Sequence record: PP919962.1
DNA: 64,000 nucleotides
Source: Klebsiella phage KP2025
Reading direction: 5' to 3' (one strand)
Part shown: positions 37,385-50,410 of the stretch, in pieces
How positions within the stretch are numbered: position 1 is the stretch's first letter
Layout of the letters: each line of letters begins with the position of its first letter
Notes under the pieces: model-generated
Told to the model about the DNA's origin: nothing
Seen by the model: only the letters and a program-made list of their open reading frames with translations
The model's database searches: none
Position numbers and translations under genes: made by a program

Positions 37385-37441
37385 ATTTGCCTCCTTTTTA
37401 TTTTACGAACTATTATTCTAACATAAGAAGGACTTTTTTGC

Positions 37442-37462
37442 AAGAAAAGGGGCTTTCGCCCC
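37442..37462 (-). terminator. rho-independent terminator GGGGCGAAAGCCCC plus U-run (minus sense)
   Basis: + strand aaaaggggctttcgcccc at 37445-37462. Confidence 0.5.
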
Positions 37463-37469
37463 TCTGATA

Positions 37470-38096: not shown

Positions 38097-38116
38097 TTTA
38101 TTCTCCTTTTATTTAT

Positions 38117-38141
38117 TAAAAATGGAGGGTTTTCACCCTCC
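38117..38141 (-). terminator. rho-independent terminator after terD
   Basis: ggagggttttcaccctcc hairpin plus T-run in minus sense. Confidence 0.5.
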
Positions 38142-38155
38142 GATGTAGGTAGTGA

Positions 38156-38758
38156 TTACGGGCATTCGTACCAAGTTTTATCACCGCCGAATGCTACCAC
38201 CACATCACAGATATCCATACCTGCTTTACCAACACCGTAGGCTTTCAGTTTCCATTCGCTGTCTTCACGAACGAGTGAAGCTACGTGGCAGATGGTGTTA
38301 CCAGCAACTTCCGGTGCGAGGAAGTCGAAGTCTAGGATCTCAACATTACGTTCTGCGTCGAAGATTTTCAGCATACCTTCGGAAGCATGACCGAGGCGCT
38401 TCTGACCAGTTTCATCGTCGATGGTGATGACGAATGCGATTTCATCTGCGTTCTGGGAGATTTTATCCAGAGTCACATCGATCTGCTCCAGGTTGCCAGT
38501 ACCATCACGAACATCTTCGCCAGCGAAGGTTGAACGCTCTGGGTCAACTTTGTTGCCGTAGCAAACCAGGTGACGGGCAGACAGCATTTCTGGATTACCG
38601 GAGGCGTTATGACGGCAGATTAGCGCGCTAACATCCAGATCGAGCTTTGAGCTTGATTTCCAGGAGAATTCCAGACGAATCTCTTTCAGCAGGGGTGCGA
38701 TCTTTTTCAGGGAAATCTTTTCGGTGGAACCTTTTTTCAGGGAAATTTTCTCAGACAT
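38156..38758 (-). CDS. terD: TerD-family protein (tellurite-resistance/stress-response TerD domain)
   Basis: collinear with R478 TerD across its length: SLKKG..ISLKK, LDLDVSAL, Ca-binding-region GEDVRDGTGN, EIAFVITIDD, EWKLKAYGVGKAG. Confidence 0.8.
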   Translation of the reverse strand: MSEKISLKKGSTEKISLKKIAPLLKEIRLEFSWKSSSKLDLDVSALICRHNASGNPEMLSARHLVCYGNKVDPERSTFAGEDVRDGTGNLEQIDVTLDKISQNADEIAFVITIDDETGQKRLGHASEGMLKIFDAERNVEILDFDFLAPEVAGNTICHVASLVREDSEWKLKAYGVGKAGMDICDVVVAFGGDKTWYECP

Positions 38759-38785
38759 GTATATTCTCCTTTATTTTTGTTTACT

Positions 38786-38805
38786 GGGGAGAGCCATCTC
38801 TCCCC
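38786..38805 (-). other. 5'UTR hairpin GGGGAGAG-ccat-CTCTCCCC between promoter and terD
   Basis: 8-bp perfect stem. Confidence 0.45.
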
Positions 38806-38817
38806 TTTGTGAAACTT

Positions 38818-38845
38818 ATTCTACTCTTTTCTTTCTAAGTGTCAA
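38818..38845 (-). promoter_or_regulatory. sigma70-like promoter upstream of terD (TTGACA-16-TAGAAT, minus sense)
   Basis: RC of 38840-38845 = TTGACA; RC of 38818-38823 = TAGAAT. Confidence 0.45.
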
Positions 38846-38853
38846 GAAATATT

Positions 38854-39648
38854 TTAGCTTTTTGCACCAACTTTCTCAACCCACTGACCAAATTCGTCAG
38901 ACAGAAGCTTATCATACAGTTCTTCATCTGACAGGTCAAGGTCATCTACACCAATAAAATCGACGTTATCGTAATCACGGGCGAGTTCTTTCAGGAAGCT
39001 GAAGCTTTCCTGTCCTACGCCCACCATAAACCAATAAATAGGTTTACCACGATTACGAGAAAGCAAGCTACGTACAGCCTCTTTATCCGAGTTATCACCG
39101 TCTGTCTGGAAGAATACCATAGCAGGTGTTGTATCGACTGGTACAGAAGTATCTGGTACTTGTTCAGTGATAGTTTTCTTCACAGTTACAGTTTCGGTTT
39201 TGCCTGTCAGCTTAGCAAAGAAACCACTCACAGGACGTTTTTCTTGTACTTCGATTTCACGAGTAACAGTTTTCATTGGAACATTACCAAAGTACTCATC
39301 GTAAATCTCTTGCATTACCGGAGCATAGGCTGTACCGCCTGAGATTGAAATACCACGCATACACTTGCCTACATAATCATCATAGACAGACGCTGTTGCA
39401 GGAGGCAGCTCACGACAGCCGTGGTCAAACGCCCACATATCAATCTGAGCATTATCGTCAAATTGCATACCGAACGGTAAAAGTTTACCTACAAAATCAC
39501 TTACAGTGCCATTACGATACAGGCTACCCATACTACCGGAGATATCCAGCGCAGATGCTACACGCAGGGTGATCTGTGCAATCTTTTTCTTTTTGAGGCT
39601 GATTACCAGTTTCTCTTGGCGTTTAACCAGACTAATTTTTTCGCTCAT
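38854..39648 (-). CDS. von Willebrand factor A domain protein (TerY-like)
   Basis: MIDAS motif LDISGSMG; N-terminus MSEKISLVKRQEKLVISLKKKK mirrors the TerD N-terminus (MSEKISLKKGSTEKISLKK). Confidence 0.6.
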   Translation of the reverse strand: MSEKISLVKRQEKLVISLKKKKIAQITLRVASALDISGSMGSLYRNGTVSDFVGKLLPFGMQFDDNAQIDMWAFDHGCRELPPATASVYDDYVGKCMRGISISGGTAYAPVMQEIYDEYFGNVPMKTVTREIEVQEKRPVSGFFAKLTGKTETVTVKKTITEQVPDTSVPVDTTPAMVFFQTDGDNSDKEAVRSLLSRNRGKPIYWFMVGVGQESFSFLKELARDYDNVDFIGVDDLDLSDEELYDKLLSDEFGQWVEKVGAKS

Positions 39649-39806
39649 TCTTTATCTCCTTTTTCAACTTCTTTTAAGTCATCTGCACGGCGTGAATCAC
39701 GCCATGCAAACCATGTGTGAAACTTAAGTTCTTCTTTTTCTTCCTTTGTAAAGTAAGGTTTACTTTCATAAAAGCGTTCAAACCAAGTCAAAAATTCTTC
39801 ACTCAT
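39645..39806 (-). CDS. small ORF (53 aa; MSEEFLTWFERFYESKPYFTKEEKEELKFHTWFAWRDSRRADDLKEVEKGDKE), missed by 60-aa cutoff
   Basis: TAATG overlap with upstream gene stop and ATGA overlap with vWA start (translational coupling at both ends). Confidence 0.3.
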   Translation of the reverse strand: MSEEFLTWFERFYESKPYFTKEEKEELKFHTWFAWRDSRRADDLKEVEKGDKE

Positions 39807-40212
39807 TATTGCCCTCCATTAAGTTTTTAAGTGCAATAGTTGTTTCACACTCATCACCATATTCATTGTGATGTTCAAGATATGCCTCCGCAGAGGCCCA
39901 ATCATTATCTTGCGTATTCCAACCGTCTATGAAAGCGTCTTCGATGATAGTCTTTAACTCAAGGCGTGTCAAGACAATTTTATCATGCATATTCTCGGAC
40001 TTTTCAGTCAAAATATCCTCCTCTAGGAGGATTTCTAGACCCGCTAACTGCTTTTCACTAATAGGATCATAAGAATATGAATATCTCAAATCTGTAACCA
40101 TCGAGATAAAACCTCTATCTAATTCAGATAGTGATAACATAGGTGCTACACGTAGTTCCTCATCATATCTAACTAAAATTGCGTCTTTGCCTTTGTATAC
40201 ACGAATAAGCAT
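39799..40212 (-). CDS. hypothetical acidic protein
   Basis: 137-aa ORF. Confidence 0.3.
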   Translation of the reverse strand: MLIRVYKGKDAILVRYDEELRVAPMLSLSELDRGFISMVTDLRYSYSYDPISEKQLAGLEILLEEDILTEKSENMHDKIVLTRLELKTIIEDAFIDGWNTQDNDWASAEAYLEHHNEYGDECETTIALKNLMEGNNE

Positions 40213-40221
40213 AATTTCTCC

Positions 40222-41319
40222 TTAGACTAAACCAGCTTTGACTTTCTGTACCATCCCATCCTCCAGGGATTGTACTTCATTGATGTAGTCAATACGGGCA
40301 GCACGCGCTTCAGTATTGATTCGGTTTGTTTCTTCCAGCATACGTACCAAGTTTTCCTGATCTTTACGCAGGGTTTCAATATCTAGGATCTGACGGTTAG
40401 ACAGAGCTGTAGCATTGATAATGTTTTGTGCAGCCAAATCACTTCCCATTTGAATTGCAGTATTGAATTCATCCAATACATTAGCTTGAGTTTGACCAGC
40501 TTCTGCTTGACGCAAACTCTCAATATACATTGAGAAGTTGGCAGAGTACGCTGGAATAACATTGTTCACGATGTTACGTGCAGAGCGCATAAGCATTTCG
40601 CTTACTTTGATCATACTATTAACACGTGGCCCCATTTGGACACAAAGAAGACGCAGTGCTTTTAAGTCAGCAATACGGATCTCCAGAATGTCTAAAGTAT
40701 CACGCACAGCCTGACGTTCTTCAACCTGATCCTCTGGTAATGTATTGAAACGTGCTTCTTCTTTCTCATAAGTATCTGTCAAAAGTTCTACATCTCGATT
40801 TAAACTTAATGCATATTGTCCAATAGCCATTTTAAGTTTTTCGAGATAAACAAGAGAATCTTCTTCTTTTCTAACATCGCCTTCAAGTTCTTTGACAAGA
40901 ACATCAATACGATTATTAATAGTATCGTACTCTGCAAACAGGTCTTCTTTCATACCCATCAACTTTTTGATGAATTTGCCAACACCTTTCGATTGTTTAA
41001 TCGAGCTGGGGTCTAATTGTTTTGCTTGTTTAATAAGAGCGGTGAGACGTTCATTCATTTCTCCGCCCTGATTACCACGTTGATGTTTCAACACTTCATT
41101 GTTTAAACTACGTAGAGTTAATCCGGCCTCTGCACCCACATTATCAATTTCTTTACGAGTCATTGCCGGAAGTTCTGGAACAGGTTTTACTACAGCAGGC
41201 GCATACACAGGGCTAGAATCAAAGACAGTTGGGGCTAATGCCGACCGTGTATCTTCTTTTGCAGCCAATGCACTCTTGCTTGGAGTTGTTTTAACAGCAG
41301 TTAAAAATGGACTAGACAT
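40222..41319 (-). CDS. TelA-like (toxic anion resistance) coiled-coil protein, tentative
   Basis: 365 aa, all-helical coiled-coil; assignment rests mainly on size, composition and Ter-cluster context. Confidence 0.3.
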   Translation of the reverse strand: MSSPFLTAVKTTPSKSALAAKEDTRSALAPTVFDSSPVYAPAVVKPVPELPAMTRKEIDNVGAEAGLTLRSLNNEVLKHQRGNQGGEMNERLTALIKQAKQLDPSSIKQSKGVGKFIKKLMGMKEDLFAEYDTINNRIDVLVKELEGDVRKEEDSLVYLEKLKMAIGQYALSLNRDVELLTDTYEKEEARFNTLPEDQVEERQAVRDTLDILEIRIADLKALRLLCVQMGPRVNSMIKVSEMLMRSARNIVNNVIPAYSANFSMYIESLRQAEAGQTQANVLDEFNTAIQMGSDLAAQNIINATALSNRQILDIETLRKDQENLVRMLEETNRINTEARAARIDYINEVQSLEDGMVQKVKAGLV

Positions 41320-41328
41320 GTTGCCTCC

Positions 41329-41907
41329 TTATTTTCTGTCTTCATAGTATGGAGAAATCCCCATAGCTTCACACTTCTTAAGCCATTCTTCCCAAGACAA
41401 TAACCAAATTTTATCAATGGTTCCTTCCTTATCTTTACTAAGGTAGGTTCCCCACATTATACTATTAGGTTTTTGCCTAGAAGGACGGCGATTATACCCT
41501 CTGATAAATCTTAATTCGTTATCTGATATGAGAGCCATTACCCAAGGGTATTCTGTTTTAACAGAACGCTTTGATACAGCTTTAGGAATAGCCCCTATTT
41601 CCTGCGCTATTGCTTTCCATGCAGCACCATGATCAGACCTACCTCTTTTACAAAAATCTATTGCATGGGCTATCTCATGTAGCATAGTATCAACAATGTT
41701 ATGCTCTTCCGAGTTTTTATGCAGATGCCAATTGATAATAACTAACTTACTTCTATTATCTGCCCAACCAAAGGATTTATTTCTTTTTTCTCTAACGCCT
41801 GCCCGCCATCCGTTGGCCTTTAGCAGGGCATCGTATTCAGGAAAGTCTTCTTTAAATTTACATAATGTAGTTTTCCATAAATTTAGAATATCCCTTGTAC
41901 TATACAT
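41329..41907 (-). CDS. SprT-like zinc metallopeptidase domain protein
   Basis: HExxH motif MLHEIAHAIDF followed by His/Cys-containing segment. Confidence 0.4.
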   Translation of the reverse strand: MYSTRDILNLWKTTLCKFKEDFPEYDALLKANGWRAGVREKRNKSFGWADNRSKLVIINWHLHKNSEEHNIVDTMLHEIAHAIDFCKRGRSDHGAAWKAIAQEIGAIPKAVSKRSVKTEYPWVMALISDNELRFIRGYNRRPSRQKPNSIMWGTYLSKDKEGTIDKIWLLSWEEWLKKCEAMGISPYYEDRK

Positions 41908-41909
41908 CT

Positions 41910-42452
41910 TTATACCCTAACAGTCAATTCGGATAAAATGATCTCCATGCCCTCTTGTTGCCATACCAAATAACCGTTATTAGTTAAAGACATATCCAAT
42001 AAAAATTGGTGATTAATCCCACGAACTTTAACTTCCACAACATCATCATTAGGCACAGTGATAGCCTGACGATAGTTTACCGTATCTTTCCAGTTATCTT
42101 CCATGATAAAGACAACCTTCTCCGCCGTTGCTTCAATAGATACAAAGTCTTTGATAGTGTATGTTTCACCGCTCATGAACAGGATGGTTGCCTTGTTCAC
42201 ACTTGGTGCTTTACGCGACGGGCCTTTCTTACGCTTAGAACGTGCTGGATGAAATGGCTTGATTTCAATTTCTCCACTATCAAGCATATCTTGAGTAGCC
42301 CATTGTACTACATTAGTCTTCGTGCCTCTAAACACCCAATCACCATGATCGTCCGTATGATAGAATGTGAAAAGATTATTGTTATTCATTAAGGCAGATT
42401 CAGCAAAGCCCTCTCCGCTTAGATGATAGATATTACCTTCAATAAAGTTCAT
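41910..42452 (-). CDS. hypothetical protein
   Basis: 180-aa ORF. Confidence 0.3.
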   Translation of the reverse strand: MNFIEGNIYHLSGEGFAESALMNNNNLFTFYHTDDHGDWVFRGTKTNVVQWATQDMLDSGEIEIKPFHPARSKRKKGPSRKAPSVNKATILFMSGETYTIKDFVSIEATAEKVVFIMEDNWKDTVNYRQAITVPNDDVVEVKVRGINHQFLLDMSLTNNGYLVWQQEGMEIILSELTVRV

Positions 42453-42522
42453 ATTTTCTCCTTGATTTATTTATTTCTCTTGACAAGGGACACTATGAAG
42501 CATCCCTAAGCAAAAGTCAACC

Positions 42523-42762
42523 TTACTGCGGAATGATTTCTTTAATTGCTGGCTCACGTCCTGCCAACTTACCGTTGAAGTCAATACAGAAGCTGTATTC
42601 AACACCGCTGGCATGTTCGAAAAGGAGTCTGTCATTCGGATCATAGACGTAGATACCCTCTTCGTCAACTAGGACAATCTCCAGTTGATCTTTATCTCCG
42701 TGTGCTGAAAAGTCCGTATCTACCATTACCGCGATATCACCTTTCTTTGCATTATCAAACAT
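42523..42762 (-). CDS. hypothetical small protein
   Basis: 79-aa ORF. Confidence 0.25.
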   Translation of the reverse strand: MFDNAKKGDIAVMVDTDFSAHGDKDQLEIVLVDEEGIYVYDPNDRLLFEHASGVEYSFCIDFNGKLAGREPAIKEIIPQ

Positions 42763-42774
42763 GTTTCCTCCTTA

Positions 42775-43338
42775 TTAGCGACGACGACTAGAGCTATAAC
42801 TTTTACGGCTAGAAGAACTACTGTAGCTACGAGAAGAACTTAGTGGGCTAGAGTAGGATTTTTTAGTAGTATAACTACTGTTAGTATTCATAGTAGGACG
42901 TGAATACGTTTGGGTGCTCATTGAACGTGGTTGGCTTTGATACACCTGTTTATTTGTTGAATAAGAGCTACGGCTATTTGAGGAGTAGCTACTGCGTGGT
43001 TGAGCCACAGTGTTGTTATTGATGATCGTGGTACGGCTAGAATTATTGCTATAGCCACCGCCATTGTTACCACCACCAGACATCATGTGACCTAAAATCA
43101 TACCTGTTGCAAAGTCTCCAACACCGGAATCATGACTACCACTCTGCACGATAACAGGCGCAGGAGCAGACTGAATCACTTGTGGAGGTTGTTGGTTAAC
43201 ATACTGCTCGTCCACTTGTTGTTGCTGTGGAGCAGGGATGTATTGGGTTTGTGCTGGGACATCATCATCACATGCGCTCAGCATTGTAACACCCAGGCCG
43301 ATAATGATTGCACCGATCACCAGTTTAGTTTTGTTCAT
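42775..43338 (-). CDS. outer-membrane-type lipoprotein with glycine-zipper motif and Ser/Tyr/Gln-rich disordered tail
   Basis: lipobox LSAC; GDFATGMILGHMMSGGG glycine zipper; low-complexity SYSS repeats. Confidence 0.4.
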   Translation of the reverse strand: MNKTKLVIGAIIIGLGVTMLSACDDDVPAQTQYIPAPQQQQVDEQYVNQQPPQVIQSAPAPVIVQSGSHDSGVGDFATGMILGHMMSGGGNNGGGYSNNSSRTTIINNNTVAQPRSSYSSNSRSSYSTNKQVYQSQPRSMSTQTYSRPTMNTNSSYTTKKSYSSPLSSSRSYSSSSSRKSYSSSRRR

Positions 43339-43531
43339 GTTTTGTTTCCTCGCTTAAAGTGTTAATACATTGATTGTTATCTAACGAGTAGCAAAAAACT
43401 GGCTTCTCGTCTTTACTGATGCTAATACTACCACCGCTTACCACTGCTGTCAATGCTACAACTAAAATAAATAAACCTACACCGAAACAAATACTTTCAA
43501 ACACAAACCACACTGCTTTCAGGATTTTCAC
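43325..43531 (-). CDS. small single-pass membrane protein
   Basis: 68 aa, hydrophobic helix VGLFILVVALTAVV; 14-nt overlap with lipoprotein gene. Confidence 0.3.
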   Translation of the reverse strand: MKILKAVWFVFESICFGVGLFILVVALTAVVSGGSISISKDEKPVFCYSLDNNQCINTLSEETKHEQN

Positions 43532-43713
43532 TGCTGCACTCCTTCATTAATGCACTGACTATAGCGCAGATATAGATTATCATTACCTGCCTCAAAATTA
43601 CGAATTTGCTGCGTACACTCTTGGTAAGTGAGGTGTGGGACAGTTAAATGTTCCGTACCTCCATTTGAGTTGGTTGCAATGCTCCAAATCAGAATCAAAG
43701 TATACATGTTTCT

Positions 43714-43731
43714 CTCCTGTAGAAAGCCTCC
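43714..43731 (-). other. UUCG-tetraloop hairpin AGCCUCC-uucg-GGAGGCU after terC (possible weak terminator)
   Basis: agcctcccgaaggaggct on + strand. Confidence 0.35.
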
Positions 43732-43748
43732 CGAAGGAGGCTATTTCA

Positions 43749-44729
43749 TTAAGCTGTTGCTTCTTCTTTCTCAGGGAAGACCAGACTTGCCAGTACACCC
43801 AGCGCCAGAGTACCCAGTACGATATACAGACTTACGTTAGCTGAGATATCGTGTGGCATGAACGCCCACTTAGCATGTAACGCTTCGCCAAACGGGTGAT
43901 ACATCAATTTCGCACCTACAAATACCAGAACTACAGCTACTGCTTTCTCCAGGTGAACCAGATACTTAACCGCAACACTTAGTACGAAGAACAGAGCACG
44001 TAAACCCAGGATTGCGAAGAGCATCGCAGAGTAAACTAGCAGAGGTTCTTGTGTCACACCGATCACCGCAGGTACAGAGTCGAAGGAGAAAATCACATCA
44101 GTGAATTCTACTACGAACACACACAGCAGTGCTGGAGTTGCATATTTAATACCATTTTTAATCGTGATGAACTTCTCACCATCCAGAGCGGGATGAACTG
44201 GAAGAATCTTACCAACCAGACGAGTCGCCCAGTGTTTAGAGTAATCAACTTCATCTTCCTCATCATCACCGCCTTTGATAATAGCCAGTGCAGACCATGC
44301 TACAATCAGACCGAACAGCACTTGGAAAAACCAGTGTAAATTAAAGATTGCCGTACCTGCTGCCACAAAGATACCTCGAAATACAATGGCACCAGCAATA
44401 CCCCAAAGTAGAATCTTATGCTGTAAGTGTGTTGATTTAATACCGAAACTCGCAAAGATTGCCATGAATACCATCAGGTTATCCACCGACAACGACTTCT
44501 CTAAAACATACCCACTCAAGAACAGGGATGCAAATTCTTTACCGTACTCAATCCAGATGAATGCGTAGTAACCAAACGCTAGGGCAATCCAGAACACCGA
44601 CCAGAGCAATGCGCTCTTGATACCGATTTCTTTATTTTCCTTATGCCCGAAAAAATCAACTACAATTGACAGTGCCAGCACACCTACGAGCACAGCAATG
44701 TCCAACAGTGGGAATCCAAAATGGTGCAT
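43749..44729 (-). CDS. terC: TerC-family integral membrane protein
   Basis: multi-pass membrane protein with TerC hallmarks LSVDNLMVF and FSFDSVPAVIG. Confidence 0.7.
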   Translation of the reverse strand: MHHFGFPLLDIAVLVGVLALSIVVDFFGHKENKEIGIKSALLWSVFWIALAFGYYAFIWIEYGKEFASLFLSGYVLEKSLSVDNLMVFMAIFASFGIKSTHLQHKILLWGIAGAIVFRGIFVAAGTAIFNLHWFFQVLFGLIVAWSALAIIKGGDDEEDEVDYSKHWATRLVGKILPVHPALDGEKFITIKNGIKYATPALLCVFVVEFTDVIFSFDSVPAVIGVTQEPLLVYSAMLFAILGLRALFFVLSVAVKYLVHLEKAVAVVLVFVGAKLMYHPFGEALHAKWAFMPHDISANVSLYIVLGTLALGVLASLVFPEKEEATA

Positions 44730-44745
44730 GTTTATCTCCTTTTTG

Positions 44746-44766
44746 AGGAGGGAGCCTATCTCCCTC
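44746..44766 (-). other. 5'UTR hairpin GAGGGAG-cctatc-CTCCCTC between promoter and terC
   Basis: 7-bp stem directly upstream of SD aaaaaggagataaacATG. Confidence 0.4.
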
Positions 44767-44775
44767 TTGACACAT

Positions 44776-44803
44776 ATATTACGCTAATTTAATTTCTTGT
44801 CAA
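44776..44803 (-). promoter_or_regulatory. sigma70-like promoter upstream of terC (TTGACA-16-TAATAT, minus sense)
   Basis: RC 44798-44803 = TTGACA; RC 44776-44781 = TAATAT. Confidence 0.45.
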
Positions 44804-44809
44804 CTACTT

Positions 44810-45076
44810 TTATTCCACAATTTTGAAGTTTACACCGATAGTACCTGCAACATCACACGCACAATCGCAGTCTGTATCATCAAGGAATAGTACCGCTTGG
44901 TCTTCATCGTTCGTCTGACCTGGATAACCAGCAAAGCGCTTAGGTACTACTTCACCTGGCTCCAGAATAATAGCGTCATATTCTTTGTTCACTGTGGTGT
45001 CAATAAATGACCAGTGATCTTTGTTCAGAACAACAATCTTAACATTTTTCATAATTTCTCCTTTGTTAGTGAGCAA
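44810..45076 (-). CDS. hypothetical small protein
   Basis: 88-aa ORF. Confidence 0.25.
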   Translation of the reverse strand: MLTNKGEIMKNVKIVVLNKDHWSFIDTTVNKEYDAIILEPGEVVPKRFAGYPGQTNDEDQAVLFLDDTDCDCACDVAGTIGVNFKIVE

Positions 45077-45176
45077 CTCATTTCGTCTTGATGTAATGAA
45101 GTTTACGCTCTTCTCAGATTAAGTCAACAATTATTTTCAAAATAATTAAGCCTCCCGTAGGAGGCTCATGTTCCAA

Positions 45177-45389
45177 TCATTTTCTTGCAAATATGCCGCG
45201 CAACGTTGCTAGTATGAGTGTGACACACACCACACTCCAAAACGTTACAGGGACTTCCCAACTAACATGCCCCATCAGCGAGACAATATAGTTATAGGCC
45301 AACATCACTAGCCACGTTGGTATCAGGCAGATTAAGAACGCTACCACCACCATAGCTAAGAACATTACAACTCCAGCAATAATTTCCAT
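45177..45389 (-). CDS. small two-helix membrane protein
   Basis: 70 aa, two hydrophobic helices. Confidence 0.3.
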   Translation of the reverse strand: MEIIAGVVMFLAMVVVAFLICLIPTWLVMLAYNYIVSLMGHVSWEVPVTFWSVVCVTLILATLRGIFARK

Positions 45390-45397
45390 AATTTCTC

Positions 45398-45859
45398 CTA
45401 ATTTAATTTAAAAATAGTAACTTCCAGACCTTTGGCGACGAGTGTCTCCTGAATCATAGCTTCAACTACAGACCACTTTCCGCCAGCTAATCCACAACCA
45501 ATGAGAGGGAGTCCTACCGTCTTCCCGCCACATGCAATTACGTCATCACCCATTGCGTCCAATGCATCAAAGATAGCGTCATAGTCTAAGTCACGAATAC
45601 CTGAATCACGTTTACTGTAGCCGTACTGTCCGTACAGATTGTAGACGGTTAGTTCACCATCCTCTACAATAGCTTTCGTGAAGGTTCCCAGTTTCGTGCT
45701 ATCACCTTTACGTGTTGCACAATCAGCAGCATACACTTCGGGCCATTCTTTTTTAATCTTAGGGGCTATGCCCTTGCCCATCGTGCAAAAACAATTGCAG
45801 CAGTGCCCAATAGCATCTACTTCAGCTTGAAGCAGATCTCCGATTTTATACTTTATCAT
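45398..45859 (-). CDS. macro-domain protein (ADP-ribose binding/hydrolase)
   Basis: 153 aa; EVDAIGHCCNCFCTMGKGIA and PLIGCGLAGG match macro-domain motifs. Confidence 0.5.
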   Translation of the reverse strand: MIKYKIGDLLQAEVDAIGHCCNCFCTMGKGIAPKIKKEWPEVYAADCATRKGDSTKLGTFTKAIVEDGELTVYNLYGQYGYSKRDSGIRDLDYDAIFDALDAMGDDVIACGGKTVGLPLIGCGLAGGKWSVVEAMIQETLVAKGLEVTIFKLN

Positions 45860-45868
45860 TCTTTCTCC

Positions 45869-46726
45869 TTACTTATTCAGAACATTACCTTCGAAGAAAT
45901 GATGAAGAAACGCAAAGTTCTCCTCATACTTCGTAATTTTATTATATCCTTCTGCCAAGCAACCAAAATACAACGCCTCAACGTAAGATAGTGGAAGTTG
46001 GCTCAGTGCTACCTTAAAGGTCACTTCTGGTTGGCTCATTAGGTATTTGATTGGACGAACCAAACACTGGGCATCAGGCTCATCTTTAATCATCTGCACG
46101 AAAGCGGAAATAGTGTTAATGTCACTGAAATTCAGTGCCGCTTCTGTGTTGGCCTCAGTCCCATTGTACTTGGCGAAGTAGAGGAAGAATGTGTCATTAG
46201 TTATATTCTCTGCATCTAAGATCTCAATGAGCTTGTCTTCGTGTGTTCCGGTAATATTTACATCATCGATGAAGATCAGGTTTTTGTTTCCCCAGAAATC
46301 TTTGTTGATCGAGAAAGTATCACCGTCAATCAGAGCTTTGCGGTCTTCCTTACTGAGGAAGCCATAATCATTGATATAACTCACCTTACGATGAATGATA
46401 TCCCACTCTACAGCCTTGCCATGATTACTGTTCACAGCTACCAAATGGTTAAGATGGTCTACAAAATGCTCTGAGAGCAACGTAGCGGCGTTTTTAACGT
46501 AGTTATAGGGCGAAGGTATCACCACAAACTGACTATGTACCAAACGGCTCCAGTGGGCCTCAAAGAAGCTTTCTGCAAGAATGCGCCCCATACGCTTAGC
46601 TGCTTGATTGCTACCAAACTTCAGCCGGGAATAATCCGCTGTATTGAAACCGGCATTTTCTAAGGTAGAAAAAGTATGGGCAAAGTGTTGAGTTTGATTA
46701 CGCATTAATGATTTCTCCTTTTTCAA
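45869..46726 (-). CDS. phosphoribosyltransferase-like protein (type I PRTase PRPP-binding motif)
   Basis: NLIFIDDVNITGTHEDK = hydrophobic-x4-DD-xxx-TG-x-T PRPP loop. Confidence 0.4.
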   Translation of the reverse strand: MKKEKSLMRNQTQHFAHTFSTLENAGFNTADYSRLKFGSNQAAKRMGRILAESFFEAHWSRLVHSQFVVIPSPYNYVKNAATLLSEHFVDHLNHLVAVNSNHGKAVEWDIIHRKVSYINDYGFLSKEDRKALIDGDTFSINKDFWGNKNLIFIDDVNITGTHEDKLIEILDAENITNDTFFLYFAKYNGTEANTEAALNFSDINTISAFVQMIKDEPDAQCLVRPIKYLMSQPEVTFKVALSQLPLSYVEALYFGCLAEGYNKITKYEENFAFLHHFFEGNVLNK

Positions 46727-47378
46727 GTTTCTCTAGTAGGTCTTGTGGGTTTTTAACATGACAAAACTTAAAACCTAAATCAACACATTTCCCATCATAA
46801 ATTTCACTATCTCCAATATGCAAAATTTCATAGTTCGCTAGGCTAGATAGCTTACTAGAAAGCAGAGTTTTAGCAAAGAATAAAATGTCAGGCTTACAAA
46901 GCAGATGTTCGTCCGAAAAATGCATAAAACTCCACCAAGGCATTCTATCAAAGCCTACAGCTTGAGACAAGATTCTACCTGAGATAAAGTTAGTATTGCT
47001 TTTGATACTCAATTCATACTTGTCATCGAGGCTTATTAATTGATCAACTAAATCTTCATTTAAACGTGGTGAGAATGCAAGAAAAGCTTCTTCACATTCG
47101 CGTTGCATTTGAGTAATTGCTTTTGGTTCCATGTTTAAATTTTTACCTAAAACATGCCAAGCAGTCGAGGTAAAACTACAAATACCTTTTTCTGCGTTTT
47201 GGTCTAAATATTTCTTTACCTTCCTATACATTGTACCTGCTTCACGATCAGTTACATTTGCATATTTTGCAATTATTTTAGTACGAATTTCACTATACCA
47301 AGGATTTGCAGTAATCAAAGTATTCCATACGTCAAAAGAGATGTGTTTGATTATCATATTAAGCCCACCATGCGTCAA
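46698..47378 (-). CDS. HAD-superfamily hydrolase-like protein
   Basis: motif I-like ISFDVWNTLI, motif III Lys KPDILFFAKTLL, motif IV ILHIGDSEIYDG. Confidence 0.4.
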   Translation of the reverse strand: MTHGGLNMIIKHISFDVWNTLITANPWYSEIRTKIIAKYANVTDREAGTMYRKVKKYLDQNAEKGICSFTSTAWHVLGKNLNMEPKAITQMQRECEEAFLAFSPRLNEDLVDQLISLDDKYELSIKSNTNFISGRILSQAVGFDRMPWWSFMHFSDEHLLCKPDILFFAKTLLSSKLSSLANYEILHIGDSEIYDGKCVDLGFKFCHVKNPQDLLEKLEKGEIINA

Positions 47379-47964
47379 GGTTTAAGTTACTGTCCACTAT
47401 CACTTGTTCTACGTGATAGCTTTTCATTTCAATTCCACTTTCCAGAAGCATACCATACGCCTCATTAAAACGCAACTTATCTTCTGCGGAATATAGACGC
47501 GCATTATAGAAGCGATAATCCACCTCTTCAGCATTGGAAGAGACACGGAAGAAGCCAGTGTCAATCTCCGGCGCACTTGCAGGAGTCTTGATATGAACTT
47601 CACCATAATGCTCTTTACTCAAATCCATAAACATTACACACGCAATGTGTCGGAACATCTGTTCCAGTTTATAGCGTACAACTTTGAATCCAGCGGCTTG
47701 CAGTTTTGCTACACAATCCAACATAAGATCTGTTTCGATACCTGCCTGGTACTTAGTTAGCATACGGTCACGCTGTGATTGTGTATCACGGTGCAGATCA
47801 ATTGTAGTACATTTTGCACCAATCAGTTTTGCTGCATCCATGAGTTGCTCACTACTTACGTCTGCTAATGTAAGATGAAAATGTGCTTTCCATACTTTAT
47901 CCACAGGAACACCGAGAGGTTCATCGTTAGTTTGTGGTAGGTTTGCGATCAGCCTATGTTGCAT
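47359..47964 (-). CDS. hypothetical protein (one HxTx-like motif HFHLTLADV; 2H phosphoesterase not established)
   Basis: 201-aa ORF. Confidence 0.25.
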   Translation of the reverse strand: MQHRLIANLPQTNDEPLGVPVDKVWKAHFHLTLADVSSEQLMDAAKLIGAKCTTIDLHRDTQSQRDRMLTKYQAGIETDLMLDCVAKLQAAGFKVVRYKLEQMFRHIACVMFMDLSKEHYGEVHIKTPASAPEIDTGFFRVSSNAEEVDYRFYNARLYSAEDKLRFNEAYGMLLESGIEMKSYHVEQVIVDSNLNLDAWWA

Positions 47965-47974
47965 TGTTTTCTCC

Positions 47975-48184
47975 TTAAAAAGGTGAGCGTTCTAATTCGT
48001 CTGGTTCAATACCAATAATATTAGCGATATCTCTATCAGAAAGCAACTCCTTTCTTTGCAGAATTTCTACCAGCGTACCAAGCATTTCACGAGTATCTCG
48101 ATCACTGCTCTCTACCAAACCTTTTGCACTATCAATCTGGTCTTTATAAAAATAAAATTGAATCATAAATCCTCCAAACAACAA
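47975..48184 (-). CDS. hypothetical small protein
   Basis: 69-aa ORF. Confidence 0.25.
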   Translation of the reverse strand: MLFGGFMIQFYFYKDQIDSAKGLVESSDRDTREMLGTLVEILQRKELLSDRDIANIIGIEPDELERSPF

Positions 48185-48199
48185 AGGGGCTTTCGCCCC
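48185..48199 (-). terminator. rho-independent terminator GGGGCGAAAGCCCC plus U-run (minus sense)
   Basis: + strand caaaggggctttcgcccc 48182-48199. Confidence 0.5.
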
Positions 48200-48216
48200 T
48201 TGTCAATTACTTCAGC

Positions 48217-49422
48217 TTAGTAGCTACGACCCTGAAAAGCGTAGTCAGTGTAGCTTTTCTGCTCTTTTGTTTTGATAACCAGTTCGATGACATTCTCACC
48301 TTCTTTGAACATGAAGTGGAAGCCATCTACGCCCATACTCTTAACATTTTGCTCGTTGTAAGAGATGGTGAACAGGTCAGAATCCCAGTGCCAATCTTCT
48401 GTCTCGTCATCGTAGATATCGAGAGTAATGTTTTCCATTTCCGGCAGACGCGCCTTACCTTTGTGGTGTTTAACACGGAAGTCAAACGTGCGGCCAGCGA
48501 ACAGACGCTGCGGAGCCAGCTCGTAAAGTTCGTACTCGTCCGTAATGTCATCCTTACGCTCAACACCGTTCACCTTGAAGGTTACAATTTCCTTCGCAGA
48601 ACGAGTACCGCCATCATTGATGGTAATACCCATCAGGTTCAATGCATCGGTAAACTTATCGTCAGGATAACGATTCAGTTCTTCAACCAGGGACTGAACA
48701 ACGTCGAAGTTCAGATCAGAGGACAGGTTGTACAGGGTTTCAAAGTCACCCACGAACGCTTTGTTTTCCAAGTTTTTAGCTAAGTAATCATCCAGCGTGG
48801 ACTTAGGCAGTTTCTTATAGCTAAAGCTATAGAAGATACGGCTTGGTCGGTTACGCAGAAATTCAGACACATAACCATCGTTCTTAGTCAGAACGAACAG
48901 TTTGTTATAGCCACCTACACCATCCAACAGAGTAAGCAGACCGTCCTGATGCTCTTTCTCGGCGTACAGCTTATCAAATTCATCAACCATCACCATAACT
49001 GGTTGCTTGATCTTAGACATGAAGTTGATAAAATCTTCACCGTTGAACGGGCTACCGATGGAGATGGTAGGGATACCGATCTTACGCAGCGCTACAGAGA
49101 GCATTTTTGCTTGCAGAGTTTTACCGCTGCCTTTAGTACCTTCAAGAAGGATACCAGTGTTCTTACCTTGACGGCTCAGGAACGTTTTGATAATACGATC
49201 AGATTTATCGTCGGTATCACCGTAGGTTACACTTGGTACTTCCATATCGTTTTTAGGGTAAAGGAACCACTCGCCATGCTGAGTAACACCAATACCATAA
49301 GTACCCGCTGGAATTACATCGATATCAATACCAGACTTCTGACGCAGGAAGATTTGACTACCAAATTGTGTGAACATGTATTTCTCCTTCTTTCTCTTTA
49401 AAGTGTAGGAGAAGTATATCAA
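48217..49422 (-). CDS. AAA-type ATPase (start probably at internal Met, MFTQFG)
   Basis: Walker A LLEGTKGSGKT, Walker B VMVMVDEFD. Confidence 0.45.
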   Translation of the reverse strand: MIYFSYTLKRKKEKYMFTQFGSQIFLRQKSGIDIDVIPAGTYGIGVTQHGEWFLYPKNDMEVPSVTYGDTDDKSDRIIKTFLSRQGKNTGILLEGTKGSGKTLQAKMLSVALRKIGIPTISIGSPFNGEDFINFMSKIKQPVMVMVDEFDKLYAEKEHQDGLLTLLDGVGGYNKLFVLTKNDGYVSEFLRNRPSRIFYSFSYKKLPKSTLDDYLAKNLENKAFVGDFETLYNLSSDLNFDVVQSLVEELNRYPDDKFTDALNLMGITINDGGTRSAKEIVTFKVNGVERKDDITDEYELYELAPQRLFAGRTFDFRVKHHKGKARLPEMENITLDIYDDETEDWHWDSDLFTISYNEQNVKSMGVDGFHFMFKEGENVIELVIKTKEQKSYTDYAFQGRSY

Positions 49423-49444
49423 CCTCTCCTATGAAAATCAACCC

Positions 49445-50410
49445 TTATTTTTTAAAAACTCGCCCAAGCTGTTTACCGCTATTGATCACCGTACCATCTT
49501 CGGCCTGGAAGTCCCAAGTACCGTCAATGTTGCGGAAGAAGTTAGAACGATTACCCACTTCGTGGATCACTACCGCCATCACCAGATCGGAGTTGATTTC
49601 CGACTCAATGCTCTCTTTGATGCCTTCTGTGATATCCCGCTCATATTGGATATACACCTTATCATCAATGATCTGCACACTACGAACATTCTTGAACGTA
49701 TAAACCTGCTGTGTGGTGTACAGCACCCGTACAATTGTCTTAGCAACAGTAGGTTTTTGACGATTACGTTTACGATAACGTGGGCGCGGGTTTTTTGCAG
49801 TAGCCTGCTCTGTAACACCATAGTGTTCTTTAAGCAATTTTAAAAATTCTTCATAGCTTACTAACACTTGATTTCCAGTAATACCCCTCATATAGCCATC
49901 AATACCACACTCATCCGAGAAATAGGTAACATGTTTATCTTCGTAATTCTCCACATAACGCATGAAACGACTTCCGTCACTCCAGAAAGTTTTACCTTGC
50001 TCACGACAAATTTCCACTAGGAGTTGGATTTCATTCGAGCCTACCGATTTTGTGAGGAAAGCTGCTTCATGAATTGTTGGTTTTACTTTTGGTTTTATTT
50101 TGTCCATAATAACGTCAAACATCTCCTGTCCTGTAATAGTTTTTGTTTGCATATCCCATTTCTGAATAGTTCCTAAGTCAGCACCATCCATAATACCTTT
50201 ACTATCAAAGAAGATATGAGAAAATGGAGGCTCTCGCCCATTGTCGTTTGTAATGAACATAGAACGAACATCTGCTACGCTGTACAAGTCCTCATCATCA
50301 CCAGAAAAAACTTTAGCCAAAGCTTCGAAAAAACGCTCTTCTTTATTTACACTGCGGGCATATGCCAGCACATCAATCTTCGAGGCATTAATACTTACTG
50401 GAATGGTCAT
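49445..50410 (-). CDS. hypothetical protein
   Basis: 321-aa ORF. Confidence 0.3.
   Translation of the reverse strand: MTIPVSINASKIDVLAYARSVNKEERFFEALAKVFSGDDEDLYSVADVRSMFITNDNGREPPFSHIFFDSKGIMDGADLGTIQKWDMQTKTITGQEMFDVIMDKIKPKVKPTIHEAAFLTKSVGSNEIQLLVEICREQGKTFWSDGSRFMRYVENYEDKHVTYFSDECGIDGYMRGITGNQVLVSYEEFLKLLKEHYGVTEQATAKNPRPRYRKRNRQKPTVAKTIVRVLYTTQQVYTFKNVRSVQIIDDKVYIQYERDITEGIKESIESEINSDLVMAVVIHEVGNRSNFFRNIDGTWDFQAEDGTVINSGKQLGRVFKK

What the first reader, a model, noticed from the sequence alone, without database searches (positions are those of the whole stretch)
38156..49422. Phage-borne Ter-type stress-response cluster with a nucleotide-metabolite module
Within about 11 kb on the - strand the phage encodes proteins that normally co-occur in bacterial Ter operons. 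TerD (38156-38758) aligns along its whole length with R478 TerD. A vWA protein (38854-39648) has an intact MIDAS motif (TerY-like). A 365-aa coiled-coil protein (40222-41319) is TelA-like. TerC (43749-44729) carries the LSVDN and DSVPA hallmarks. Also present are a PRTase-like protein (45869-46726), a HAD-like phosphatase (46698-47378), a macro-domain protein (45398-45859), an AAA ATPase (48217-49422), a SprT-like metallopeptidase (41329-41907) and an outer-membrane-type lipoprotein (42775-43338). The TerD/TelA/TerC/vWA plus PRTase/HAD combination is the gene neighbourhood that comparative genomics has linked to synthesis of an uncharacterised nucleoside-like metabolite. I know of no experimental characterisation of such a module in a lytic phage. 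The added macro domain (ADP-ribose binding) and the phage's own promoter-hairpin architecture suggest a phage-deployed signalling or counter-defence system rather than passive cargo.
Basis: partly seen in the sequence, partly recalled or inferred. Interest (0 to 1): 0.85.

Follow-up and report, generated by a model that had tools for sequence, protein, structure and literature searches.

The report
Phage Ter-type membrane and nucleotide gene block
A Klebsiella phage of the phi92/phAPEC8 group carries a conserved block of bacterial "tellurite-resistance" (Ter) stress genes next to a small nucleotide-enzyme operon; the genes are real, but more than 130 sequenced phages share the block, it has been noted in print before, and nobody yet knows what it does.

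Summary
Profile searches confirm TerD, a TerF-type vWA protein with an intact MIDAS motif, TelA, an Alx-type TerC, a Ter-associated PRTase (PF15610), a HAD-fold protein, a macro domain, a SprT-like protein and an AAA ATPase at the stated coordinates.

The window is a Stephanstirmvirinae myophage, 95.6% identical to Klebsiella phage KP13-26. The same gene order occurs in phi92, phAPEC8 and about 130 relatives, with dN much lower than dS.

The block looks like a mosaic of three parts:
- **Ter membrane hub:** TerD and TerC each have their own sigma-70-like promoter, and the hub includes small membrane proteins.
- **HAD-PRTase cassette:** this translationally coupled pair also occurs without Ter genes in other phages and in rhizobia.
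- **Two flanking ADP-ribose-linked genes:** a SCO6735/DarG-class macrodomain, and an uncharacterised 201-aa family that is fused to NUDIX or neighbours Acb1, NADAR, Macro or PARG elsewhere.

The AAA ATPase is a general phage ATPase. SprT is variable. The lipoprotein carries an inner-membrane (+2 Asp) signal.

Phage Ter clusters, including ones with PRTase and HAD, are already in the literature (phi92 2012, Iyer 2021, phiKp34, PhiPsa374), with function unknown. Verdict: a new member of a known kind, of moderate interest.

The parts
38156..38758 (-). TerD-domain protein (200 aa)
   Evidence: Pfam TerD E 9.7e-29. Full-length alignment to Klebsiella TerD 2KXT, E 3.1e-15. DLDVS motif kept; the acidic loop is partly altered (GEDVRDGTGNLE). 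82-86% identical in phi92 and phAPEC8.
38818..38845 (-). Sigma-70-like promoter in front of TerD (TTGACA-16-TAGAAT), followed by a 5'UTR hairpin at 38786-38805
   Evidence: Consensus match only; not shown to be functional.
38124..38141 (-). Terminator-like hairpin after TerD
38854..39648 (-). vWA protein of the TerF C-terminal type, with an intact MIDAS motif
   Evidence: Pfam vWA-TerF-like E 1.1e-41. DISGS at 35, GGT at 104, TDGD at 182.
40222..41319 (-). TelA-family protein (365 aa)
   Evidence: Pfam TelA E 4.1e-34. phrog_5890 E 5.6e-117. 74-75% identical in phi92 and phAPEC8. No solved relative by sequence.
40015..40032 (-). Terminator-like hairpin downstream of TelA, followed by two promoter-like sites (39944-40011)
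   Evidence: It lies inside the mechanically called ORF 39799-40212, which matches two separate small genes in relatives.
41329..41907 (-). SprT-like metallopeptidase (HEIAH); a variable accessory gene
   Evidence: Pfam SprT-like E 1e-11. Present in phAPEC8 at 48% identity, absent from phi92.
42775..43338 (-). Lipoprotein with lipobox LSAC followed by Asp at +2, and a Q/S/Y-rich tail
   Evidence: By the +2 rule it is retained in the inner membrane (established knowledge). phi92 gp180, in the same position, has an annotated signal peptide.
43325..43531 (-). 68-aa protein with one transmembrane segment
   Evidence: Hydrophobic segment at residues 13-31. Conserved at 35-40% in phi92 and phAPEC8.
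43749..44729 (-). TerC/Alx-type integral membrane protein (326 aa, about 9 hydrophobic segments)
   Evidence: Pfam TerC E 6.3e-41. NCBIfam TIGR03718 Alx, 319.5 bits against a cut-off of 246.4. LSVDN and DSVPA present. No yybP-ykoY riboswitch upstream.
44776..44803 (-). Sigma-70-like promoter in front of TerC (TTGACA-16-TAATAT), followed by a 5'UTR hairpin at 44748-44766
   Evidence: The phAPEC8 record annotates a host-dependent promoter at the equivalent place.
43725..43742 (-). Terminator-like hairpin after TerC
45147..45168 (-). Terminator-like hairpin that ends the nucleotide-enzyme operon
45177..45389 (-). 70-aa protein with two transmembrane segments; last gene of the operon
   Evidence: 54-58% identical in phi92 and phAPEC8.
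45398..45859 (-). Stand-alone macrodomain of the SCO6735/Bt_1257 subclass (ALC1-like class, together with TARG1 and DarG)
   Evidence: Pfam Macro. NCBIfam DarG E 1.1e-16, N-terminal half only. PADLOC DarG E 5.9e-19. PDB 2fg1 and 5e3b, E about 1e-17 to 1e-18. It has the GQYG Gln and the five-residue longer loop that define the SCO6735 subclass.
45869..46705 (-). Type I phosphoribosyltransferase of the Ter-associated PRTase_3 family, with a C-terminal helical domain
46698..47357 (-). HAD-fold protein; its stop overlaps the PRTase start by 8 nt
   Evidence: Profile match to PDB 2om6, E 5.7e-18. Motifs FDVWNT, SNTN, KP and GDSEIYD are conserved. The D+2 general acid is an invariant Trp.
47359..47964 (-). 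201-aa protein of an uncharacterised family with conserved motifs HxHxT, GKxT, RxKLE, ExHxK, SxNP, QFxNxR and DSN..DxWW
   Evidence: No Pfam match. AF2 pLDDT 84. No convincing fold match. PADLOC 'AbiEi' models E 3.2e-13. 257 remote representatives. Fusions to NUDIX, HD_4 and HTH. Neighbours elsewhere are Acb1, NADAR, Macro and PARG.
47975..48166 (-). 63-aa protein; first gene of the operon. The phi92 homologue is annotated as helix-turn-helix
48184..48201 (-). Terminator-like hairpin between the AAA ATPase gene and the operon
48217..49377 (-). AAA ATPase; a neighbour, judged not to be part of the Ter block
   Evidence: Pfam AAA E 3.6e-5. The family occurs in 304 phage records of many hosts and lies elsewhere in Phapecoctavirus genomes.

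Best explanation
The region is a conserved accessory block of Stephanstirmvirinae phages. It is carried on sigma-70-like promoters, so it is probably read early by host RNA polymerase. It is best read as three juxtaposed modules rather than one machine.

1. **Reduced Ter hub.** TerD, TerF-type vWA, TelA and Alx-type TerC, plus an inner-membrane lipoprotein and two small membrane proteins. This hub is installed at the host inner membrane. Inferred: it stabilises the membrane and its divalent-cation balance during infection. It may also reproduce the known Ter phenotype of excluding other phages and pore-forming colicins.

2. **HAD-PRTase_3 cassette.** The two genes are translationally coupled. 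Inferred: the PRTase joins an unknown base to PRPP, and the HAD protein then processes the product. The HAD chemistry may not be that of a standard phosphatase, because the general-acid Asp is replaced by Trp.

3. **Two flanking genes co-transcribed with the cassette.** One is a SCO6735/DarG-class macrodomain. Inferred: it removes DarT-type ADP-ribose from DNA. The other is an uncharacterised family that elsewhere travels with ADP-ribose-processing and anti-CBASS genes.

Shown: domain identities, gene order, conservation and motif integrity. Inferred: timing of expression, protein localisation and all activities.
For: **Identity of the parts:**

**Conservation**
- The same order holds in phi92, phAPEC8, KP13-26 and phi1_175008.
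- TerD occurs in 146 phage records, PRTase in 156 and TelA in 202.
- Rough dN/dS is 0.02-0.17 for the Ter genes against phi92 and phAPEC8, with dS saturated.

**Separate transcription units**
- Terminator-like hairpins follow TerD, TelA, TerC and the operon, and one lies between the AAA gene and the operon.
- TerD and TerC each have a sigma-70-like promoter with a 5'UTR hairpin.
- Terminator-like sites number 21, against 10.1 +/- 3.0 in shuffles.

**Membrane theme**
- TerC has about 9 hydrophobic segments.
- There is a lipobox protein with +2 Asp, and there are one-TM and two-TM small proteins.

**The cassette is autonomous**
- HAD lies directly upstream of PRTase in 20 of 21 genome loci.
- Ter genes lie within 10 kb in only 4 of the 20 non-phage loci.
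- The pair stands alone in a Sinorhizobium chromosome, in Rhizobium phage RHph_TM61 and in another phage contig.
- It lies with TerC, TerD and vWA in contig L003.

**The macrodomain is a separate gene**
- It is of the SCO6735 subclass.
- Phage macrodomain and NADAR anti-DarT factors are experimentally established.

**ORF 47359-47964:**
Against: - No expression, localisation or activity data exist for any of these genes.
- The promoter matches are consensus hits, and promoter-like sites are not enriched over shuffles (45 found against 37.8 +/- 5.2).
- The strict adjacency of the Ter hub and the cassette in more than 130 phages, together with their linkage in Pedococcus, Bacteroidales and contig L003, fits functional coupling as well as mere juxtaposition.
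- Macro, PRTase, HAD and ORF 47359 sit in one terminator-bounded unit. This argues for joint use rather than independence.
- The TerD acidic loop is partly degenerate, so Ca2+ binding is uncertain.
- Exclusion of other phages is known only for the full R478 ter operon, which also has TerB and several TerD paralogues. Those are absent here.
Confidence: 0.5

Rival explanations
1. One integrated Ter signalling system. PRTase and HAD make a nucleoside-like signal. TerD senses it. TerC, TelA and the vWA protein then remodel the membrane, mainly to shut out superinfecting phages. The neighbouring genes act as accessories.
For: - The PRTase belongs to the Ter-associated family PF15610.
- TerD/vWA plus HAD-PRTase neighbourhoods occur in Pedococcus, Bacteroidales and phage contig L003.
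- The two parts are invariably adjacent in Stephanstirmvirinae.
- Iyer et al. 2021 proposed this model for phages.
Against: - The HAD-PRTase pair occurs without detectable Ter genes in 13 rhizobial loci, in two other phage lineages and in a Dysgonomonas locus.
- The hub and the cassette are separated by terminators and have separate promoters.
- TerB and the ATP-grasp and other biosynthetic enzymes of the bacterial module are absent.
Confidence: 0.22
2. The whole block is counter-defence.
- The Ter hub shields the inner membrane from abortive-infection effectors that depolarise or perforate it.
- The Macro-PRTase-HAD-ORF47359 operon is one ADP-ribose/NAD-centred pathway. It reverses DNA ADP-ribosylation and destroys or rebuilds nucleotide immune signals.
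For: - The macrodomain is of the DarG/SCO6735 class.
- ORF 47359 relatives are fused to NUDIX and sit beside Acb1, NADAR, Macro or PARG in four other phage contexts.
- The four genes are tightly packed with no internal terminator.
- In Rhizobium phage RHph_TM61 the pair sits one small ORF (63 aa) away from an NMN adenylyltransferase/NUDIX gene.
- Relatives gain and lose genes in this slot, as anti-defence hot spots do.
Against: - No known anti-defence protein family matches PRTase_3, the HAD protein or any Ter protein (PADLOC scan).
- Macro is not linked to the pair outside this subfamily.
- ORF 47359 is missing from phi92, which keeps Macro, PRTase and HAD.
- The association data come from only five contexts.
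Confidence: 0.18
3. PRTase and HAD are ordinary nucleotide-salvage or nucleotide-pool enzymes that belong with the adjacent ribonucleotide reductase and DNA-metabolism genes. Their position beside the Ter genes is a historical accident.
For: - In phAPEC8 the operon abuts nrdD/nrdG.
- In RHph_TM61 the pair lies among DHFR, PurA-like and NMNAT genes.
- The fold is a standard type I PRTase.
Against: - It always comes with this particular HAD protein, which lacks the phosphatase general acid.
- Linkage to Ter genes recurs in unrelated bacteria.
Confidence: 0.08
4. Passive cargo: a moron that gives the host tellurite or metal resistance and has no role in lytic growth.
For: PHROGs and several GenBank records label TelA and TerC as 'moron / tellurite resistance'.
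Against: - These phages are virulent myoviruses.
- The block is kept in the same order in more than 130 genomes, with dN much lower than dS.
- The set lacks components needed for tellurite resistance, as the PhiPsa374 authors also argued.
Confidence: 0.03

Closest known systems
Ter stress-response network of bacteria and plasmids (R478 terZABCDEF, RK2 telA/kla, B. subtilis yceCDEFGH; Anantharaman, Iyer and Aravind 2012)
   Same: It has the TerD, TerC, TelA and TerF-type vWA 'hub', and next to it the PF15610 PRTase and a HAD protein. These are the predicted makers of a nucleoside-like metabolite.
   Different: - It has a single TerD-domain gene instead of several paralogues.
- It lacks TerB, TerW and the TerY kinase/phosphatase triad, and the ATP-grasp and aldolase-type biosynthetic enzymes.
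- TerC is of the Alx subtype.
- It is carried by a virulent phage on its own promoters.
Ter clusters already reported in phages: phi92 gp172-gp187 (2012 record), phAPEC8, Acinetobacter phage ME3 and Caulobacter jumbo phages (Iyer et al. 2021, PMC7824862), Klebsiella phiKp34 (PMC8386662), Pseudomonas PhiPsa374 (PMC9796965), gut Jug phages (PMC12880540)
   Same: Same gene set. For phi92 and phAPEC8, the same order, with 52-88% protein identity for the core genes. Function is unknown in all of them.
   Different: The Klebsiella clade in this window adds SprT-like and ORF 47359 (both shared with phAPEC8, not with phi92). It lacks a 187-aa ORF that KP13-26 and phi1_175008 carry between Macro and PRTase.
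Orphan anti-DarT factors of phages (PhiKZ AdfM macrodomain, PMC13309987; T4-like NADAR, PMC11825919; ICP1 AdfB, PMC11481870) and the SCO6735 macrodomain (PMC9411070)
   Same: It is a stand-alone ALC1-like macrodomain encoded by a lytic phage. It shares the Gln-type active-site motif and the long mobile loop of SCO6735, which cleaves thymidine-linked ADP-ribose and neutralises DarT.
   Different: - Similarity to AdfM is only weak (BLASTP E 1e-4 over 47 residues).
- It has Gln in place of the DarG/AdfM-type Lys.
- Its activity and target are untested.
H. pylori ComF and type I purine/pyrimidine phosphoribosyltransferases
   Different: About 13-15% identity. It has an extra C-terminal helical domain of roughly 90 residues. 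The substrate is unknown.

Membership tests
Ter stress-response system | TerD-domain protein | tested here: met
   Pfam TerD E 9.7e-29. Full-length match to Klebsiella TerD 2KXT.
Ter stress-response system | TerC-family integral membrane protein | tested here: met
   Pfam TerC E 6.3e-41. NCBIfam Alx model above its cut-off. LSVDN and DSVPA motifs present.
Ter stress-response system | TelA-family protein | tested here: met
   Pfam TelA E 4.1e-34 over residues 55-360.
Ter stress-response system | vWA protein of the TerF/TerY type with a MIDAS motif | tested here: met
   Pfam vWA-TerF-like E 1.1e-41. DxSxS, T and D residues present.
Ter stress-response system | TerB and multiple TerD paralogues (TerZ/A/E), as in terZABCDEF | tested here: not met
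   No TerB match and only one TerD match among all - strand ORFs from 37470 to 51764.
Ter stress-response system | Linked biosynthetic module: PRTase and HAD (plus ATP-grasp and other enzymes in the full version) | tested here: inconclusive
   PRTase_3 and HAD are present and adjacent. No ATP-grasp or aldolase-type ORF was found. The pair also occurs without Ter genes.
Ter stress-response system | Phenotype: resistance to tellurite, phages and pore-forming colicins | not testable with these tools
   Needs experiments.
ALC1-like macrodomains that reverse DNA ADP-ribosylation (DarG / TARG1 / SCO6735) | Macro fold with closest relatives in this class | tested here: met
   PDB matches: Bt_1257 at E 2.6e-18, SCO6735 at 7.8e-17, TARG1 at 5.9e-11 and DarG at 7e-9. 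PADLOC DarG E 5.9e-19.
ALC1-like macrodomains that reverse DNA ADP-ribosylation (DarG / TARG1 / SCO6735) | Active-site residue: Lys in DarG and TARG1, or Gln in a GQxG motif plus a five-residue longer mobile loop in the SCO6735 subclass | tested here: met
   GQYG aligns with GQHG of SCO6735 and Bt_1257. The alignment to TARG1 shows the five-residue insertion. The subclass definition comes from PMC9411070.
ALC1-like macrodomains that reverse DNA ADP-ribosylation (DarG / TARG1 / SCO6735) | C-terminal DarT-binding domain and an adjacent DarT gene (a true DarG antitoxin) | tested here: not met
   The protein has 153 residues and matches only positions 1-147 of the 338-position DarG model. No DarT-like neighbour was found. 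It is therefore an orphan macrodomain.
Type I phosphoribosyltransferase | PRPP-binding loop and PRT core fold | tested here: met
HAD-superfamily phosphatase | Motif I nucleophile Asp, motif II Ser/Thr, motif III Lys, motif IV acidic pair, and the fold | tested here: met
   FD9VWNT, S120-N, K155-P and GD183SEIYD188 are invariant. Profile match to 2om6 at E 5.7e-18.
HAD-superfamily phosphatase | General acid/base Asp two residues after the nucleophile (D+2) | tested here: not met
   The position is an invariant Trp in all seven aligned homologues and in 2om6. Phosphatase activity is therefore not assured.
2H phosphoesterase (considered for ORF 47359-47964) | Two H-x-T/S-x motifs on a LigT-like bilobed fold | tested here: not met
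AbiEi antitoxin (considered for ORF 47359-47964) | Match to AbiEi models and adjacency to an AbiEii nucleotidyltransferase toxin | tested here: inconclusive
   Two PADLOC models named AbiEi match over the full length (E 3.2e-13 and 7.8e-11). No Pfam AbiEi family matches. The model has no winged-helix domain. None of the five contexts examined has an AbiEii gene.

The most novel reading that the evidence does not exclude
The terminator-bounded operon 45177-48166 (63-aa protein, ORF 47359, HAD, PRTase_3, macrodomain, two-TM protein) is a single ADP-ribose/NAD-centred counter-defence pathway.

ORF 47359-47964 would found a previously undescribed enzyme family. It has conserved HxHxT and ExHxK motifs, is often fused to NUDIX, and sits beside Acb1, NADAR, Macro or PARG in other phages. 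It would process an ADP-ribose-derived or cyclic-nucleotide immune signal.

The 'Ter-associated nucleoside-like metabolite' made by the HAD-PRTase cassette would be part of the same conflict chemistry rather than a metal-stress signal.
Probability: 0.2. Interest if true: 0.75.

Novelty: new member of a known kind. Interest (0 to 1): 0.4.

Why it matters
The Ter genes have had no accepted mechanism since the 1990s, although they are among the most widespread stress and phage-resistance genes in bacteria.

A virulent phage that keeps only the hub (TerD, vWA, TelA, TerC) and the two-enzyme cassette is a minimal, naturally selected version. Close relatives (phi92 and the BASEL Justusliebigvirus and Phapecoctavirus isolates) grow on E. 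coli K-12, so they offer a tractable test bed. Gene deletions there could show whether the hub protects the membrane, excludes rival phages or counters abortive infection. They could also show what the PRTase-HAD product is.

The flanking macrodomain and the uncharacterised 201-aa family are plausible new anti-defence candidates.

The presence of the cluster is not itself news: it is annotated in GenBank records since 2012 and discussed in several papers.

Tried and rejected
2. **Mn-riboswitch control of the phage TerC/Alx.** Rfam at gathering threshold finds no yybP-ykoY element. Only a promoter and a small hairpin lie upstream.
3. **AAA ATPase as a Ter component.** Rejected on its distribution.
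4. **ORF 49445-50410 as 'ribonucleotide reductase'** (PHROG label). No Pfam or NCBIfam support. In phi92 its homologue is separated from the block by the nrd genes. I left it out.
5. **Outer-membrane lipoprotein.** Rejected because of the +2 Asp.
6. **'MazG-like' label** given to ORF 47359's homologue in the phi1_175008 record. No sequence or fold support was found.
7. **PhiKZ AdfM as a close relative of the macrodomain.** Similarity is only weak.
8. **Unavailable resources.** The Anantharaman 2012 paper (PMC4104200) is not held, so statements about it rest on citing papers and on the Pfam family. The afdb50 fold library was unavailable.
9. **Variable ORFs of relatives.** A Pfam scan of ten of them gave only the macro domain of phi92 gp185.

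Full report
**What the window is**

Megablast of 38000-50500 finds Klebsiella phage KP13-26 (95.6% identity over 99% of the query) and phi1_175008 (92.7%). Both are Stephanstirmvirinae. About 100 Phapecoctavirus and Justusliebigvirus genomes match the TerC-to-HAD stretch at roughly 77%. The window therefore comes from a virulent myophage of about 145 kb in the phi92/phAPEC8 group. The region lies on the - strand between the endolysin gene (36869-37384, Hydrolase_2) and a YqeY-like gene plus an intein-bearing UvrD helicase.

**Check of the observation**

All ORFs are present. Pfam confirms:
- TerD (E 9.7e-29)
- vWA-TerF-like (1.1e-41)
- TelA (4.1e-34)
- SprT-like (1e-11)
- TerC (6.3e-41)
- Macro (3.7e-6, above the gathering score)
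- PRTase_3 / PF15610 (4.1e-41)
- AAA (3.6e-5, above the gathering score)

Further points:
- TerC passes the NCBIfam Alx subfamily model.
- TerD aligns end to end with Klebsiella TerD 2KXT. Its DLDxS motif is kept, but the acidic loop reads GEDVRDGTGNLE, so several acidic positions are replaced.
- The HAD assignment fails as a single sequence (Pfam E 0.033). It is secured by a seven-sequence profile that matches the solved HAD protein 2om6 at E 5.7e-18.

Corrections:
- PRTase, HAD and AAA start at internal ATGs (46705, 47357, 49377). PHROG alignments start at those residues.
- The lipoprotein has Asp at +2, the classical inner-membrane retention signal.
- ORF 39799-40212 contains a terminator-like hairpin and promoter-like sites, and it matches two separate small genes in relatives.

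**Conservation**

A tblastn map shows the order TerD - vWA - (small ORFs) - TelA - (variable) - one-TM protein - TerC - two-TM protein - Macro - PRTase - HAD in phi92 (gp172 to gp187), in phAPEC8 (gp066 to gp048) and in the two Klebsiella phages.

Variable items:
- SprT-like is absent from phi92.
- ORF 47359 is absent from phi92.
- The AAA ATPase is not at this position in phAPEC8, where nrdD and nrdG lie instead.
- KP13-26 and phi1_175008 carry a 187-aa ORF between Macro and PRTase that this window lacks.

Counts across the phage collection: TerD matches 146 records (131 at 80% identity or more), PRTase 156 and TelA 202. Against phi92 and phAPEC8, synonymous sites are saturated while dN stays at 0.09-0.26 for the Ter genes. 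The rough dN/dS is 0.02-0.17.

**Transcription layout**

Terminator-like hairpins on the - strand lie after TerD (38124-38141), after TelA (40015-40032), after TerC (43725-43742), after the two-TM gene (45147-45168) and between the AAA gene and the 63-aa gene (48184-48201). The region holds 21 such sites against 10.1 +/- 3.0 in shuffles.

TerD and TerC each have a near-consensus sigma-70-like promoter followed by a GC-rich 5'UTR hairpin. The phAPEC8 record annotates a host-dependent promoter at the same place before TerC. No yybP-ykoY riboswitch precedes the phage Alx gene.

From 48166 to 45177, six genes are packed with gaps of 10 nt or less, or with overlaps. They are the 63-aa protein, ORF 47359, HAD, PRTase, Macro and the two-TM protein. 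The HAD stop overlaps the PRTase start by 8 nt, and the same overlap is seen in phi92 and phAPEC8.

**The HAD-PRTase pair**

- *HAD.* It keeps the nucleophile Asp and motifs II to IV. The general-acid position D+2 is an invariant Trp (FDVWNT), as in 2om6. A plain phosphatase role is therefore assumed, not shown.
- *Linkage.* A scan of 185,579 species genomes returned 21 loci. In 20 of them a HAD homologue lies directly upstream of the PRTase. One of the 21 (L013) is itself a phAPEC8-like phage contig. Ter genes are detectable within 10 kb in 4 of the 20 non-phage loci: two Bacteroidales MAGs, one Bacteroidetes MAG, and a Pedococcus chromosome with TerD x2, vWA, HAD and PRTase x2. None is detectable in 13 rhizobial loci.
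- *Contexts without Ter genes.* In Sinorhizobium the neighbours are aminotransferases, LysE, a ClpP-like protease and a lactonase. In Rhizobium phage RHph_TM61 the pair lies among DHFR, an NMN adenylyltransferase/NUDIX gene and a PurA-like gene. A further phage contig has it without Ter genes. Another has TerC - TerD - vWA - HAD - PRTase.

The pair is thus a rigid, autonomous cassette that is often, but not always, linked to Ter genes.

**The macrodomain**

Its best solved relatives are Bt_1257 and SCO6735 (E about 1e-17 to 1e-18), then TARG1 and DarG. NCBIfam and PADLOC DarG models match only its macro half. It has GQYG where SCO6735 has GQHG, and it has the five-residue longer loop. Together these define the SCO6735 subclass. 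The characterised member of that subclass cleaves thymidine-linked ADP-ribose on DNA and neutralises DarT.

Phage-encoded orphan anti-DarT enzymes are established: PhiKZ AdfM, T4-like NADAR and ICP1 AdfB. Similarity to AdfM itself is weak. Outside Stephanstirmvirinae the macro gene does not accompany the HAD-PRTase pair. I therefore read it as a separate, probably anti-DarT-type gene, not as a Ter component.

**ORF 47359-47964**

- No Pfam, NCBIfam or PDB sequence match.
- The word-indexed search gives only 34 close homologues. A profile search of 1.84 billion representatives gives 257.
- The model (pLDDT 84) has two ferredoxin-like halves and no convincing fold match.
- Conserved motifs look enzymatic: HxHxT, GKxT, DxMxT, RxKLE, ExHxK, SxNP, QFxNxR and DSN..DxWW.
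- Remote members carry an N-terminal NUDIX domain (4 of 4 tested, plus 7 with precomputed PF00293), or HD_4, or HTH_3.
- In other phage contigs the family lies directly before Acb1 with NADAR 4 kb away. It also lies 1.1 kb from a Macro gene and 5 kb from NADAR, and directly before a bacterial-type PARG.
- Two PADLOC models named AbiEi match it over the full length (E 3.2e-13). I could not verify what those models represent, and no AbiEii neighbour was seen.

This is a lead towards an ADP-ribose- or nucleotide-signal-processing role. It is not a demonstration.

**Genes I exclude from the block**

- The AAA ATPase family occurs in 304 phage records, including Lactococcus, Bacillus, Staphylococcus and crAss-like phages. 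It has a paralogue in the same genomes and lies 15-20 kb away in Phapecoctavirus.
- ORF 49445-50410 has no family support, and in phi92 it is separated from the block by the nrd genes.

**Literature**

- Iyer et al. 2021 describe Ter components in jumbo "and certain other related smaller" tailed phages. This includes a near-complete system with PRTase and HAD in Acinetobacter phage ME3. They propose a role against superinfecting phages.
- phiKp34 and PhiPsa374 list terC, terD, terF and telA. The PhiPsa374 authors state that the function during infection is unknown and that tellurite resistance is unlikely.
- Gut Jug phages transcribe their terD operons strongly.
- The phi92 record of 2012 already names gp172, gp178, gp182, gp186 and gp187 as stress, toxic-anion, tellurium, PRTase and hydrolase proteins.
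- I found no experimental test of any phage Ter gene.

**Conclusion**

My best reading (confidence about 0.5) is a mosaic of three parts: a membrane-directed Ter hub, an autonomous HAD-PRTase cassette, and flanking ADP-ribose-linked genes. Two readings cannot be excluded with these data. One is an integrated Ter signalling system (about 0.22). The other is that the whole block serves counter-defence (about 0.18).

Noticed in passing
window 30094-30455 (- strand), flanked by ORFs 30417-32147 and 29166-29972: A group I intron (Rfam RF00028, 61.6 bits, E 3.4e-13) splits a family A DNA polymerase gene. The downstream ORF matches the C-terminal part of DNA_pol_A.
   Followed up: partly
window 51993-54872 (- strand): The 959-aa UvrD-type helicase carries Hint/Intein_splicing matches at about residues 255-600, so it probably contains an intein. 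The homologue in phi1_175008 has only about 613 aa.
   Followed up: partly
window 47359-47964; loci L008 8001-8534, L009 6001-6993, L011 6001-7014: An uncharacterised protein family (257 remote representatives) with conserved HxHxT and ExHxK motifs. It is often fused to NUDIX, and in phages it lies beside Acb1, NADAR, Macro or PARG genes. It is a candidate new ADP-ribose- or nucleotide-signal-processing or anti-defence family.
   Followed up: partly
window 39799-40212 (- strand): The 137-aa ORF looks like a fusion or miscall. Its two ends match separate genes of 58-66 aa in KP13-26 and phi1_175008. A terminator-like hairpin (40015-40032) and two promoter-like sites lie inside it.
   Followed up: partly
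L005 9032-9595 and 11087-11338 (KP13-26); L001 10875-11438 (phi1_175008): Close relatives carry extra ORFs (187 aa between Macro and PRTase; 83 aa between HAD and ORF 47359) that this window lacks. None has a Pfam match. The operon behaves as a gain-and-loss hot spot.
   Followed up: partly
GenBank MG065656.1 and MG065689.1 (hits H36, H77): Records named 'Campylobacter phage C3' and 'A110a' (146,366 bp) carry phi92-type PRTase and TelA at the same identity as the E. coli Justusliebigvirus phages. The host label looks doubtful.
   Followed up: no
L018 10907-11587 (Sinorhizobium kostiense) and other rhizobial loci L014-L027: In rhizobia the HAD-PRTase cassette stands alone, without Ter genes. 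In Sinorhizobium a ClpP-like protease gene follows directly downstream.
   Followed up: partly
window 37385-37469, 42453-42522, 49378-49444: Other intergenic regions in the block show the same pattern, a terminator hairpin and/or a promoter-like site followed by a hairpin ahead of the ribosome-binding site. The 5'UTR stem-loops may be a general feature of early genes in this phage.
   Followed up: no
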